Assembly: GCA_965369335.1 (NCBI GenBank)
Contig: CBDUQH010000001.1
Location: 1-37,326, forward strand
Direction: 5' to 3'
Source of the DNA: an uncultured bacterium
GTDB lineage: Bacteria > Patescibacteriota > Microgenomatia > UBA1400 > CAYNFZ01
Length of the DNA: 37,326 nt
Position numbers and translations under genes: made by a program. This document shows, one piece after another, positions 6,455 to 20,557 of the stretch. Numbering within the stretch: position 1 is the first letter of the stretch; the number at the start of each line of letters is the position of its first letter. Under the pieces are notes generated by a model that was not told the DNA's origin, made no database searches, and saw only the letters and a program-made list of their open reading frames with translations.

Positions 6455-7279
6455 GTGGTAGATGTATTTTTAGAGACTTTTGTTTTGTATTCGAAGGCGA
6501 TTTTGCCATGGTTAATTTTTGGCATGGTGTTGGGGATGGTGGTGGAGAAGAAGGTTAGACGGAGTTGGATTAGGGAGTATTTTGGCAAGTTTAGTTTGGG
6601 CAAGTTGGTGATGGCACAGGTATTGGGGATGTTGTCGCCGCTTAGTATTATGTCTTTTATTCCGATTGCGGCAGAGCTGGGGGCGATGGGGGCAAGTCCA
6701 GGGTTATTGTTTAGTTTTTTTATTGCTGAGAGGGCTTATGATTTACAGGCGTTTTTAATTGTGGGGAGTTTGTTTGGGTGGAGGGTGGCGGTTATCAATG
6801 TGGTGACTATATTTGTGGCATTGGTGGTGACGGCAATTTATTTGAAGAGACGGCCAATTGAGTTTAGTTACAAAGAAAAGCGCAAAAAGAAAGATGGATT
6901 TTGGATGAGGCAAGTGAGGCTATTGCTGACGGTGGGGGTGGGGATAGTGATTGGAGCGAGTTTAAAAGTGATGGTGCCTGAGGGAGTTTTTAGTGGGATT
7001 GCTGGTAGTGATTGGGGCGGAACTTTGAGTGCATTGGTGATGGGATTTAGTTTTTATTTTGGCCCACTTTTGGGCAACTATCCTGTGATTAAGGCCTTTG
7101 CGGATTTGGGGATGAGCCAAATGGGAGTGTTGACTTTTTTGAGCGTGTCTCCGGTTTTTAATTTTGTGATTATTATGATGTTTAGTGGGTTGGTGGGAGT
7201 GAAAGAGACCGTCAAACCGGTGGCTATTTATGCGATTGTGAGTTTGGTTTTGTCGGTGGGGTTGGGGATGTTATTTTAA
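6455..7279 (+). CDS. Predicted permease (possibly ArsP/DUF318-type)
   Basis: 274 aa with about 8 TM segments and a central basic loop (KRRPIEFSYKEKRKKKD), the layout of two-repeat permeases. GTG start. Confidence 0.55.
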   Translation: MVDVFLETFVLYSKAILPWLIFGMVLGMVVEKKVRRSWIREYFGKFSLGKLVMAQVLGMLSPLSIMSFIPIAAELGAMGASPGLLFSFFIAERAYDLQAFLIVGSLFGWRVAVINVVTIFVALVVTAIYLKRRPIEFSYKEKRKKKDGFWMRQVRLLLTVGVGIVIGASLKVMVPEGVFSGIAGSDWGGTLSALVMGFSFYFGPLLGNYPVIKAFADLGMSQMGVLTFLSVSPVFNFVIIMMFSGLVGVKETVKPVAIYAIVSLVLSVGLGMLF

Positions 7280-18037: not shown

Positions 18038-18943
18038 AGGAATACTTTATCAGTTTGGAATGGAATGTTGAATAAGGAATCTGGTAGGTGTTGAAACAAT
18101 TGCCCCCGATAGCAAACGCTTGTTCAATTCGCTCAAACTACCGGGGGTTTTAAAAATCTGCACAGGCTTCTATTTCTAATAAACATACAAGGTGATGCTG
18201 GTGTTGTACTGCGAGCATGTGCAGACCCGCAAGCGGGCAAAAATAATTCACTAGTTGGAAAATTTTGAGAGAGGAGTCAGTTAATATCTTTGGGCTGAAA
18301 CCAACTCCCGGGGCTATTGATCGGTTACAACCTATGTTTGTTTGACAACTCTCAGGTTATAACAAGCTCCTTGTCCGGATTTTCAAAGTGAGGATAGAGC
18401 AAGCTTGGCATTTACCACCAATCGCTCGTGCGCAGCTTGCTCTTTACGATAGGTAAAAGAACTTGAGTTGATGTTGCGCAAACACTAAATCGCTTATTTC
18501 CCAACACAGCGAATATTAAAGTGCTTGATTGGTAGGTTACGTTAGTGAGAGAAAAACTACAATAAGTAGTTGGTGTGGATTCGAGTCAAACTCGATTTAA
18601 AAGCGGTATGGCAAAGTCTAACTTTGCTTTTGTATTGAGCAACTTTAACAGAGGGAGATTTGTTGATTTGAAGTTGGGAAAAACGAAACTGTGTGGTGTG
18701 GGTCGGGTGTTGCTGAGTCTTTGTTGAAGGAACCGATATTTGACCCACACTACACAGTGGAAGATTGCACAAGTGTCTTCTGCTTTGAAGTAGTGATTTC
18801 AAAGAGAAGGGGAGGCTCTTGTGATCTTTTACAAGAGCCTTTAGAGGAATGTAAAAACTTCATTCAAGTGTGCAGGGTGAGTTGATTATATTTTTGATGT
18901 TTTTGGATGTAAAGGGAGAGATTGGTGTGTTTGGTGTGGGGCA

Positions 18944-18985
18944 TCCCGGGGAGATTGATCCCGGGGAAGTTTTCCCCGGGGAGGA
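18944..18985. repeat. Three tandem copies of a ~15-nt unit containing palindromic CCCGGGG
   Basis: TCCCGGGGAGATTGA / TCCCGGGGAAGTTTT / CCCCGGGGAGGATTT, starting at 18944, 18959 and 18974. Confidence 0.8.
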
Positions 18986-19713: not shown

Positions 19714-19869
19714 GGATTGCACCTTTGGAAAGATATAAAGTCGGTGGGGGGTGAAATGTGAAGTTTTGCGATCCTGAATATCGACTACTTCGCCAAATAC
19801 TATGTGGTATATGTCTTCGTGTTGGTTTTAGGATGACGAAATTTGTATATCCTTTCAGAGGTGCAATCC
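19714..19869 (+). other. 156-nt element closed by a 24-bp imperfect inverted repeat
   Basis: GGATTGCACCTTTGGAAAGATATA (19714-19737) pairs with TATATCCTTTCAGAGGTGCAATCC (19846-19869). That gives 21 Watson-Crick pairs, 2 G-U pairs valid only on the + strand, and 1 A-C mismatch. Confidence 0.7.
19765..19841 (+). repeat. Structured motif copy 1 (stem ATCCTGAA / TTTAGGAT, flanked by ..TTTTGCG and GACGAAA)
   Basis: Shares CTGAATATCG and TTT-AG-[GA]-ATGACGA with copy 2. The stem shows compensatory changes relative to copy 2. Confidence 0.6.
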
Positions 19870-19906
19870 GTTGCTTGTCAATGTTTGTCTATACACAACT
19901 CAATAC

Positions 19907-19954
19907 TTTTCGATTCTGAATATCGGCATAAATGCCGGTTTCAGAATGACGAGA
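19907..19954 (+). repeat. Structured motif copy 2 (stem ATTCTGAA / TTCAGAAT, inner hairpin CGGCA-taaa-TGCCG)
   Basis: Same flanks as copy 1 (CTTTTCG ... GACGAGA) and an 8-bp perfect stem. Confidence 0.6.
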
Positions 19955-20557
19955 TTGGATTGTGTGTAGATTTGTTAGCGATATTTTAATGAGCGTGTTA
20001 CTAAAGGTGTAACGGAGGGATAAATTGTAAGGTGTGTTTTAAATTAGCTTGTGCGAGAGTTTGGATAGCGTGGTCAAAGAGAGAGGGAGAAAAATCGTCG
20101 GTATGTATTTTTTTTATCTCTTGGCCACTAGAAGTCTCCGCACAAGCTTCTTGCAATAAATTTTTTTGGTCCATTCCAAAGTTGTATTGGAGGGACACTA
20201 AGTAGGGAAAACCCAAAGGCTAACCACGCATGATTAGCCTTGGTCCGATGTACTACTTCACAACATTCAGCGACATGGTTTTACGAGTTGTTGAAGTGTA
20301 CATCGCTTCGAGAAATGATACTGGTAACAGTGTTATATTGTTTCATAATAGTCCTTTCTGACTATATAAACGGATGTATAACACGGACACTGGAATAGCG
20401 ACCTAAATAACCATTCCGGTGTCAGTGTTTTAGCAATATAACTGGGTTTTCCCGATTTAAGGTACGGGTGTAACTATAGTGGGCGAGATAAAGATGAGCA
20501 ATGTATAAGAGGTGTGTAAAAATTAGGCCGATAGAGTTGTTTAATGTGTTTTATAGG

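What the first reader, a model, noticed from the sequence alone, without database searches (positions are those of the whole stretch)
19714..19954. Duplicated structured motif with covarying stem, one copy enclosed by a 24-bp helix
The two copies are at 19765-19841 and 19907-19954. They share three elements:
- the 5' flank TTTTGCG / CTTTTCG;
- an 8-bp stem (ATCCTGAA / TTTAGGAT versus ATTCTGAA / TTCAGAAT);
- the 3' flank GACGAAA / GACGAGA.

The 3' flank can pair back to the 5' flank, leaving a conserved GA bulge.

Between copies the stem changes C-G to U-A and G-U to G-C, so pairing is maintained. Stem contents differ: 48 nt in copy 1, against a compact CGGCA-TAAA-TGCCG hairpin in copy 2.

Copy 1 is embedded in a 156-nt domain closed by a 24-bp helix whose two wobble pairs are valid only on the + strand.

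The CUGA ... GAUGAC strings superficially recall k-turn/C-D-box or hammerhead cores, but they do not fit either consensus. This looks like a repeated RNA module, for example a protein-binding or ribozyme-like unit. Less interestingly, it could be a small MITE-like repeat.
Basis: seen in the sequence. Interest (0 to 1): 0.6.

Follow-up and report, generated by a model that had tools for sequence, protein, structure and literature searches.

The report
Hairpin DNA repeats for Ssn nuclease
The two "RNA motifs" are copies of a genome-scattered DNA hairpin repeat, read from the wrong strand, of the kind that small Ssn (GIY-YIG) nucleases recognise and cut in single-stranded DNA; that system was published in 2025, and this is a new sequence subtype in an ultra-small uncultured bacterium.

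Summary
Two related hairpins lie at 19769-19838 and 19911-19951, each at the tip of a longer helix (fold z = -8).

They are not a local RNA module:
- The core GAUYCUGAA..UUCAGRAUGAC occurs about 23 times in this 1.36-Mb genome and in 33 of 286 genomes of the same order.
- Copies are intergenic, lie in either orientation relative to genes, and are absent from orthologous sites in congeners.

Read on the minus strand the motif is (C)GTCAT-[palindrome]-ATC. This is the frame of the NTS/SRM repeats bound by Ssn single-stranded-DNA nucleases (Chenal et al. 2025).

Evidence for the Ssn link:
- This genome has two Ssn-type genes of 93 and 96 aa.
- Ssn-type genes occur in 22 of 33 motif-bearing genomes and 0 of 20 motif-free ones.
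- This exact motif subtype brackets ssn genes in several relatives and in other phyla.

The published SRM search pattern does not match the window copies, so this is a new AT-richer subtype. Copy 1 is decayed.

One addition is new: in this genome (43/50) and one relative (40/44) the cuttable strand lies on the C-rich strand, which suggests coupling to replication. This is not universal.

RNA function and a RAYT/REP origin are unlikely.

The parts
19911..19951 (-). SRM-type hairpin repeat, copy 2 (intact). Minus-strand reading: CGTCAT-TCTGAAACCGGCATTTATGCCGATATTCAGA-ATCG.
   Evidence: Covariance-model hit at E = 1.7e-10. Hit in the strict frame scan, GTCAT + Watson-Crick stem of 7 bp or more + ATC. 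The ssDNA fold has z = -4.9 on both strands.
19769..19838 (-). SRM-type hairpin repeat, copy 1 (decayed). It has a 48-nt apical insertion and an A.C mismatch in the stem on the sense (minus) strand.
   Evidence: Covariance-model hit at E = 1.7e-12. The TTAGGAT arm pairs only through G.T on the + strand. It is not a significant ssDNA hairpin on its own.
19714..19737 (.). Left arm of the outer 24-nt inverted repeat enclosing copy 1.
   Evidence: I1 and the fold. No other copy exists in the genome.
19846..19869 (.). Right arm of the outer inverted repeat enclosing copy 1.
   Evidence: I1 and the fold.
19888..19912 (.). Left arm of the outer helix enclosing copy 2; it overlaps the first two bases of the repeat.
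   Evidence: Folds. One search counted 29 Watson-Crick and 7 G.U flank-flank pairs over 70-nt flanks.
19950..19970 (.). Right arm of the outer helix enclosing copy 2.
   Evidence: Folds.

Best explanation
The two motifs are copies of an Ssn-related motif (SRM, the generalised form of the Neisseria NTS repeat). This is a short hairpin-forming DNA repeat scattered through intergenic DNA. It is the recognition site of a roughly 94-aa single-domain GIY-YIG nuclease of the Ssn family.

The oriented, functional reading is on the window's minus strand: (C)GTCAT, then a palindrome starting ATYCTGAA, then ATC.

By analogy with the characterised enzymes (inferred, not shown here), the nuclease would do the following:
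- bind the folded hairpin only when the DNA is single-stranded;
- use the C just 3' of the palindrome for binding and the GTC just 5' of it for cutting;
- cleave a few nucleotides upstream.

The likely partner in this genome is the Ssn paralogue at G000:C123:3488-3769 (93 aa). It falls in a clade, found only in this order, whose members are bracketed by this same YCTGAA subtype. A second paralogue at G000:C8:6826-7113 (96 aa) is bracketed by TCCCGA/CCCGG-type SRMs.

Copy 2 in the window is intact. Copy 1 is a decaying copy with an insertion in its loop. The repeats are gained and lost between congeners, so they behave as mobile or at least dispensable elements.

What they do for the cell is inferred only from Neisseria: restriction or modulation of incoming single-stranded DNA. 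They could equally be the selfish spread of an SRM-ssn-SRM cassette. Neither role is shown here.
For: 1. Frame identity. The published NTS is CGTCATTCCCGCGMAVGCGGGAATCYRG. The window motif reverse-complemented is CGTCATTCTGAAC..GTTCAGAATCG. The invariant letters across 38 distinct sequences from relatives (40 model matches) are exactly GAT...ATGAC, which is GTCAT...ATC on the other strand. G000:C91:955-982 reads TGTCATTCCCGCGAAAGCGGGAATCTAT, a near-canonical NTS.

2. A strict scan of G000 for GTCAT + Watson-Crick stem of 7 bp or more + ATC finds 50 sites, against 3 when the sequence is read backwards.

3. G000 encodes two small GIY-YIG genes: C8 (57.0 bits) and C123 (51.2 bits) against PF01541, whose cut-off is 22.6 bits. 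The C8 gene is bracketed by SRM hairpins 64 nt upstream and 0 nt downstream.

4. Phylogenetic profile. Ssn-type genes (E <= 1e-20) occur in 22 of 33 genomes with the motif and in 0 of 20 without it (Fisher p = 4e-7). This includes family f13, which has no Y1 transposase.

5. Adjacency. Six motif copies lie within 105 nt of an ssn gene. The exact subtype GTCATYCTGAACTTGWTTCAGRATC flanks ssn genes in G010, G029 and G285, and in a Saccharibacteria, a Kangiella and an Elusimicrobia genome.

6. Homologues with 55-66% identity in many phyla are flanked by published-pattern SRMs in 55 of 80 loci, several of which fit the full NTS definition. Of the 97 ssn genes analysed from those loci and the order relatives together, 53 have an upstream SRM and 46 a downstream inverted one.

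7. In the protein tree a split with support 98/92 places the C123 protein with the genes flanked by the YCTGAA subtype.

8. Repeat-like behaviour. There are 23 copies in G000. The motif occurs in 33 of 286 genomes. Orientation relative to genes is random. Orthologous sites are empty in congeners.
Against: - The published degenerate SRM search pattern does not match either window copy. It finds only 4 sites in G000, against 2.85 in shuffles.
- Membership of the proteins in CDD family cd10448 could not be tested.
- No biochemical data exist for any enzyme of this lineage.
- 11 of 33 motif-bearing genomes lack a detectable intact Ssn-type gene.
- The motif-free comparison set is phylogenetically clumped (13 of 20 genomes from family f3), so the association is not made of 53 independent points.
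- The C123 contig ends 38 nt after the gene, so its downstream flank is unseen. Its upstream copies are only partly of the YCTGAA type.
- The long outer helices around both window copies are not explained by the Ssn model.
Confidence: 0.85

Rival explanations
1. The motif is a REP-type element serviced by a RAYT (REP-associated Y1 HUH tyrosine transposase).
For: - G000:C5 (about 650-1260) encodes a RAYT-like protein. Its best NCBIfam hit is NF047646, REP-associated tyrosine transposase, at E = 1.2e-15 but below the curated cut-off.
- That gene is flanked on both sides by a dispersed repeat.
- PF01797 genes are common in this order.
- Inverted pairs of two motif types resemble BIMEs/REPINs.
Against: - The repeat flanking the RAYT-like gene is the CCCGGGG type, not the window motif.
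- No GAT-hairpin-ATGAC element lies next to the ten best Y1 genes of relatives; the nearest one is about 1.45 kb away.
- PF01797 is present in 14 of 20 motif-bearing genomes and in 8 of 10 motif-free ones, so there is no association.
- All five f13 genomes tested carry the motif but have no PF01797 hit.
- There is no GTAG tetranucleotide.
Confidence: 0.06
2. The motif is a structured RNA module transcribed from the + strand: a protein-binding or catalytic unit inside a 2.5-kb non-coding RNA.
For: - The + strand fold is very strong (z = -8.0).
- The stem covaries.
- The G.U pairs are valid only on the + strand.
- The motif lies in a 2.5-kb ORF-poor region.
Against: - There is no Rfam match even at E <= 10.
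- About as many copies are antisense as sense to flanking genes.
- Copies are absent at orthologous sites.
- The minus strand folds nearly as well (z = -6.9).
- The wobble pairs follow the genome-wide G+T enrichment of that strand.
- The motif is tied to a DNA nuclease family that does not touch RNA.
- The 2.5-kb region is not conserved in relatives.
Confidence: 0.04
3. The motif is a generic non-autonomous palindromic repeat (MITE-like), with no dedicated protein partner, that merely shares a short frame with SRMs by chance.
For: - Copies are dispersed and intergenic.
- Presence and absence vary between congeners.
- The published SRM pattern does not match.
Against: - The motif co-occurs with ssn genes and directly brackets them in several lineages and phyla.
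- The invariant letters are the same ones shown by mutagenesis to matter for Ssn binding and cutting.
Confidence: 0.05

Closest known systems
Ssn nucleases with NTS/SRM hairpin repeats (Chenal et al. 2025, Nat Commun 16:2388, PMC11893778)
   Same: - The repeat has the same oriented frame: GTC, then a palindrome beginning AT, then C.
- Copies are multi-copy and intergenic.
- The repeats bracket a single-domain GIY-YIG gene of about 94 aa in the arrangement SRM-gene-inverted SRM.
- Close protein homologues in other phyla are flanked by sequences that fit the NTS definition.
   Different: - The stem is AT-richer (ATYCTGAA instead of ATTCCCGCG).
- The loop can carry 20-50-nt hairpin insertions.
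- The published degenerate SRM pattern does not match.
- The probable partner protein sits in a separate clade seen only in this order.
- The host is an ultra-small uncultured bacterium; 'Patescibacteria' does not occur in the paper's main text.
- A strong strand bias relative to GC skew is seen here and is not discussed in the paper.
REP/BIME elements with RAYT (TnpA-REP), the 'REPtron' of E. coli and Pseudomonas
   Same: - Short extragenic hairpins carry a conserved oriented tail.
- Copies are often in inverted pairs of two subtypes.
- They are recognised as single-stranded DNA by a small nuclease whose gene they flank.
   Different: - The enzyme family differs: GIY-YIG here, not HUH/Y1.
- There is no GTAG.
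- There is no association with PF01797 genes.
IS200/IS605 subterminal hairpins and their ORF-less derivatives (PATEs)
   Same: - The hairpins are recognised as single-stranded DNA.
- Their orientation is linked to replication direction.
- There are no terminal inverted repeats or target-site duplications.
   Different: - No TnpA or TnpB gene lies next to the copies.
- The active strand here lies on the inferred leading-strand template. From my own knowledge of the IS608 work, that is the opposite of what is reported for IS608.
Neisseria dRS3 repeats
   Same: They are a palindrome ATTCCC-N8-GGGAAT, of which NTS is the oriented, longer form.
   Different: This is a different host and a different stem sequence.

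Membership tests
Ssn / SRM (NTS-like) system | A hairpin repeat with oriented non-palindromic flanks: GTC just 5' of a palindrome and C just 3' of it. | tested here: met
   The minus strand of both window copies reads CGTCAT...ATCG. GAT...ATGAC is invariant in 38 distinct sequences. There are 50 strict-frame sites in G000 against 3 in the control.
Ssn / SRM (NTS-like) system | Match to the published degenerate SRM search sequence HGTCWYN(0-2)YYVSBRHN(0-5)WNVSBRGN(0-2)RNCYNB. | tested here: not met
   Neither window copy matches. Only C8:7624 and C91:955 are true hits in G000, which has 4 hits in total against 2.85 in shuffles. The S positions are A/T in this subtype.
Ssn / SRM (NTS-like) system | The genome encodes a single-domain GIY-YIG protein of about 94 aa. 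| tested here: met
   G000:C8:6826-7113 (96 aa) and G000:C123:3488-3769 (93 aa). PF01541 scores are 57.0 and 51.2 bits against a cut-off of 22.6.
Ssn / SRM (NTS-like) system | The ssn gene is flanked by its repeats, often on both sides. | tested here: met
   The C8 gene has SRMs 64 nt upstream and 0 nt downstream. The YCTGAA subtype flanks ssn genes in G010, G029, G285, L209, L227 and L231. Of 97 genes, 53 have an upstream SRM, 46 a downstream one and 36 both.
Ssn / SRM (NTS-like) system | Repeat and gene co-occur across genomes. | tested here: met
   22 of 33 against 0 of 20, Fisher p = 4e-7. The caveat is phylogenetic clumping of the motif-free set.
Ssn / SRM (NTS-like) system | The protein belongs to the cd10448 clade of the GIY-YIG superfamily. 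| not testable with these tools
   No CDD is available. As a proxy, homologues with 55-66% identity in Sphingobium, Devosia, Legionella, Desulfosarcina and others are flanked by published-pattern SRMs in 55 of 80 loci. No solved Ssn structure was found by sequence search.
Ssn / SRM (NTS-like) system | Cleavage of single-stranded DNA only, upstream of the repeat; the reverse strand, dsDNA and RNA are not cut. | not testable with these tools
   This needs biochemistry. It is known only for the Neisseria and Wolbachia enzymes.
REP / RAYT (REPtron) | A Y1 HUH transposase gene bracketed by the same repeat, and co-occurrence of the two. | tested here: not met
   The RAYT-like gene at G000:C5 is bracketed by CCCGGGG repeats. 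There is none next to ten Y1 genes of relatives. f13 genomes have the motif but no PF01797.
k-turn / box C/D, hammerhead | Tandem sheared G.A pairs next to a 3-nt bulge, or the hammerhead core. | tested here: not met
   No Rfam family matches at E <= 10 apart from three weak matches below their gathering scores, none overlapping the motif. The CUGA letters are Watson-Crick paired with UCAG and the stem covaries. That is incompatible with the k-turn register.
Classical MITE | Terminal inverted repeats with target-site duplications, and empty sites in relatives. | tested here: inconclusive
   Empty orthologous sites exist. However, intergenic divergence (genes about 75-80% identical) prevents defining the ends or any duplications. 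No sequence beyond about 35-40 nt is shared between copies.

The most novel reading that the evidence does not exclude
The polarity of SRM repeats is coupled to replication. In genomes with strong strand asymmetry, the strand that Ssn can cut is kept on the C-rich strand. That strand is the template of the leading strand and is rarely single-stranded. The cuttable strand is thereby kept off the lagging-strand template, which is exposed as single-stranded DNA at every fork.

This would mean one of two things. Either the cell's own Ssn nuclease is a standing hazard to replication that shapes where and how its repeats can sit, or the repeats insert in a fork-dependent, strand-specific way.

The extreme GC skew of this genome and the near-absolute SRM polarity could share one cause: long single-stranded exposure of the lagging-strand template.
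Probability: 0.35. Interest if true: 0.6.

Novelty: new member of a known kind. Interest (0 to 1): 0.4.

Why it matters
- It removes a false lead: this is not a new ribozyme or structured RNA.
- It extends the recently described Ssn/SRM system to an ultra-small uncultured lineage.
- It defines an SRM subtype (GTCATYCTGAAC..GTTCAGRATC) that the published search pattern misses. Surveys based on that pattern therefore undercount SRMs.
- It pairs the subtype with a distinct Ssn clade. That gives a concrete new enzyme/site pair to test as a single-stranded-DNA tool.
- The strand bias of the repeats relative to GC skew, if general, would give a first clue to how cells tolerate a nuclease aimed at their own genome.

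Tried and rejected
- **Rfam.** Nothing relevant at gathering or at E <= 10. There are no tRNA or tmRNA genes.
- **k-turn / C-D register.** Rejected because the CUGA/UCAG stem covaries.
- **Intrinsic terminator.** Rejected. The T-run is 5' of the hairpin, no consistent 3' T-run exists, and orientation relative to genes is random.
- **DNA uptake sequence.** Rejected on copy number (about 20-50 copies, not thousands).
- **Dimeric operator.** Rejected because the arm spacing varies from 4 to about 86 nt and the inserts are themselves hairpins.
- **RAYT link.** Tested and not supported for this motif.
- **Conservation of the 2.5-kb region and its neighbours in the 12 nearest genomes.** None at DNA level, so local conservation could not be judged.
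- **Orientation test on a closed genome, G017.** Uninformative, with only about 3 true SRMs.
- **G134.** No strand bias, 13 against 12.
- **PDB sequence search with the Ssn protein.** Only spurious WD40 hits and a weak UPF0213 hit.
- **Literature searches** for RAYT or REP in Patescibacteria. Nothing relevant.
- **Paper supplements.** Not held.
- **Counting flank-flank pairs in MFE folds.** Too noisy on this G+U-rich strand to say whether outer helices are a family trait.

Full report
**1. The observation**

- The segment 19700-19970 folds into two long hairpins on the + strand. The energy is far below that of dinucleotide shuffles (-98.1 kcal/mol, z = -8.0).
- The minus strand also folds well (z = -6.9).
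- Copy 2 is itself the tip of a long helix (19888-19912 / 19950-19970).
- The outer helix around copy 1 has 21 Watson-Crick pairs, two G.T wobbles and one A.C mismatch.
- Rfam finds nothing relevant, and there are no tRNA genes.
- The motifs lie in a 2.5-kb stretch without credible ORFs, between a minus-strand gene with a sub-threshold DUF4394 match (taken here as a surface protein) and an island of orphan genes.

**2. The motif is a dispersed repeat**

A pattern search of the whole 1.36-Mb assembly found a dozen near-identical copies on other contigs. There is a short form (loop AUCAAG) and a long form with an extra apical hairpin.

A covariance model built from 16 copies gave these counts:
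- 23 matches in this genome;
- matches in 33 of 286 genomes of the same order, spread over 24 of 138 genera, usually several per genome.

Across relatives the invariant letters are GAU..CUGAA...UUCAG..AUGAC.

**3. It does not behave like a cis-acting RNA**

- Copies are intergenic. They occur sense, antisense, between convergent genes and between divergent genes in comparable numbers.
- They often come as inverted pairs of two subtypes.
- At orthologous sites they come and go. G010 has a pair where its congener G039 has a 90-nt AT-rich spacer.
- Downstream of a conserved gene ending HHD*, G098 has a copy. G099 and G017 have none, and other congeners have different inserts.
- The 2.5-kb region itself has no DNA-level counterpart in the 12 nearest genomes.

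**4. First hypothesis, REP/RAYT, tested and set aside**

Y1 transposase homologues are common in the order. This genome has a RAYT-like gene on contig C5. That gene, however, is flanked by CCCGGGG repeats.

Against a RAYT link:
- The Y1 genes of relatives have no such hairpins beside them.
- PF01797 shows no association with the motif.
- All five tested genomes of family f13 carry the motif and have no PF01797 hit.

**5. The identification**

A look-up of earlier notes by sequence pointed to the Ssn family (Chenal et al. 2025, PMC11893778). I read the paper. Its main points are:
- Ssn proteins are single-domain GIY-YIG nucleases of about 94 aa.
- They bind a genome-scattered hairpin repeat, NTS = CGTCATTCCCGCGMAVGCGGGAATCYRG, generalised as SRM.
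- They bind it only as single-stranded DNA and cut a few nucleotides upstream.
- They cut neither the reverse strand, nor duplex DNA, nor RNA.
- The C just after the palindrome is the key base for binding.
- The three bases before the palindrome matter most for cutting.

The window motif, reverse-complemented, is CGTCAT-TCTGAAC..GTTCAGA-ATCG. The letters invariant across the family here (GAT...ATGAC) are the complement of GTCAT...ATC, the frame of the NTS.

This genome holds many hairpins with this frame and different stems (YCTGAA, TCCGGA, TCCCGA, CCCGTA, CCCGGG). One is a near-canonical NTS, at C91:955-982. A strict scan finds 50 sites, against 3 in a backwards-read control.

**6. The partner genes**

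- The genome has two Ssn-type genes, C8:6826-7113 (96 aa) and C123:3488-3769 (93 aa). The C8 gene is bracketed by SRM hairpins.
- Among 53 genomes of the order, Ssn-type genes (E <= 1e-20) occur in 22 of 33 with the motif and in 0 of 20 without it (p = 4e-7). The motif-free set is dominated by one family.
- Six motif copies lie within 105 nt of an ssn gene.
- The exact subtype flanks ssn genes in G010, G029 and G285.
- A scan of one genome per species found homologues with 55-66% identity in many phyla. Of those 80 loci, 55 carry a published-pattern SRM, several of which fit the full NTS definition.
- The YCTGAA subtype flanks ssn in a Saccharibacteria, a Kangiella and an Elusimicrobia genome.
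- Of 97 ssn genes, 53 have a sense SRM ending a median 18 nt before the start codon. 46 have an inverted SRM a median 8 nt after the stop.
- In a protein tree, a split with support 98/92 separates a clade seen only in this order. It contains the C123 protein and the genes of G010, G285, G029 and G019 that are flanked by the YCTGAA subtype. The C8 protein falls in the main cross-phylum clade.
- The genome also has ComEC, so imported single-stranded DNA, the substrate in Neisseria, is plausible here.

**7. Where the match fails**

- The published degenerate SRM pattern does not match the window copies. It is not enriched in this genome (4 sites against 2.85 in shuffles), because this subtype has A/T where the pattern demands G/C.
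- Membership in cd10448 and the enzymatic activity could not be tested.

**8. State of the two window copies**

- Copy 2 is an intact hairpin as single-stranded DNA (z = -4.9).
- Copy 1 is not (z about -0.2 to -0.5). It has a 48-nt loop insert.
- On the sense (minus) strand its stem carries an A.C mismatch, which appears as a G.U wobble on the + strand.
- The whole genome is extremely G+T-rich on one strand. Per-contig GC skew is 0.17 to 0.52 in absolute value, whatever the gene orientation. '+ strand-only wobble' is therefore the expected trace of C-to-T pressure, not evidence for RNA.

**9. A new observation: strand bias**

The table shows how many SRMs have their sense (cuttable) strand on the C-rich strand.

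| Genome | Sense strand on C-rich strand |
|---|---|
| G000 (this genome) | 43 of 50 |
| G099 | 40 of 44, including all 23 on the four sampled pieces (about 73 kb) of the 133-kb contig C1 |
| G098 | 12 of 18 |
| G134 | 13 of 25 |

- Two of the seven exceptions in G000 flank the ssn gene itself.
- The motif has about equal numbers of vulnerable C and G letters, so differential decay cannot give a 6:1 ratio.
- By established knowledge the G-rich strand is the lagging-strand template. It is the strand exposed as single-stranded DNA at the fork.
- The bias therefore keeps the cuttable strand off that template. Self-cleavage avoidance or fork-dependent insertion would both explain it.
- The bias is absent in G134, and the paper's main text does not mention it.

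**10. Unexplained**

- The long outer helices around both window copies remain unexplained.
- SRMs nested inside the loops of other SRM hairpins are seen in several loci. This hints that hairpin loops are insertion sites. If so, the window structure could be a nest of palindromes.

**Verdict**

It is a new sequence subtype and lineage of a system published in 2025.

Noticed in passing
whole window 1-37326 and all contigs of G000: GC skew is extreme, +0.33 over the window and 0.17-0.52 in absolute value per contig. It is constant across genes on both strands, with T>A on the G-rich strand. Relatives sampled show about 0.05-0.25.
   Followed up: partly
window 18943-18985; G000:C5:577-599 and 1268-1291; G000:C65:6245-6285 and 6757-6794: The CCCGGGG triple repeat in the window is identical over 24 nt to repeats that bracket a RAYT-like gene on contig C5 (NF047646, E = 1.2e-15, below cut-off). 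One copy on C65 is in full SRM frame: GTCATCCCGGGATGATTTTCCCCGGGATC. This repeat may therefore belong to the SRM superfamily rather than to the RAYT.
   Followed up: partly
window 18580-18637: A third dispersed repeat lies in the same 2.5-kb region, with copies on C41:1790-1841, C18:11920-11978 and C5:8779-8830 at 80-85% identity. The ORF-poor region is a pile-up of at least three repeat families.
   Followed up: no
L072 8034-9600 (G099:C1 about 36.0-37.6 kb): A 1.5-kb non-coding cluster holds about six SRM-type hairpins with different stems, all in one orientation. It resembles the window's ORF-poor region.
   Followed up: partly
L109 1397-1476; L201 505-579; L182 347-424; L205 904-973; L071 19127-19206: SRM copies are nested inside the loop of a larger SRM hairpin, or stacked as partial tandem heads (GTCAT...GTCAT...). 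This suggests insertion into hairpin loops.
   Followed up: no
G027:C2:48037-48311; G019:C73:33008-33282; G099:C4:60211-60480: Ssn-type reading frames are interrupted by stop codons: pseudogenes in genomes that still carry the repeats.
   Followed up: no
genomes G037, G063, G025, G067 and others of the order: There are two classes of PF01797 (Y1 transposase) genes. One is an IS200-like class of about 146 aa (E about 1e-30). The other is a class of about 210-300 aa that matches only profile positions of about 35-121 and is present in up to 18 copies per 1-Mb genome.
   Followed up: no
orthologous spacer after the gene ending HHD* in genus g18 (L032 1500-1640 and L058-L064): The same short spacer between a stop codon and a TAnAAT-like box carries a different inserted repeat in almost every congener and is empty in two. 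It is a hot spot for small insertions.
   Followed up: partly
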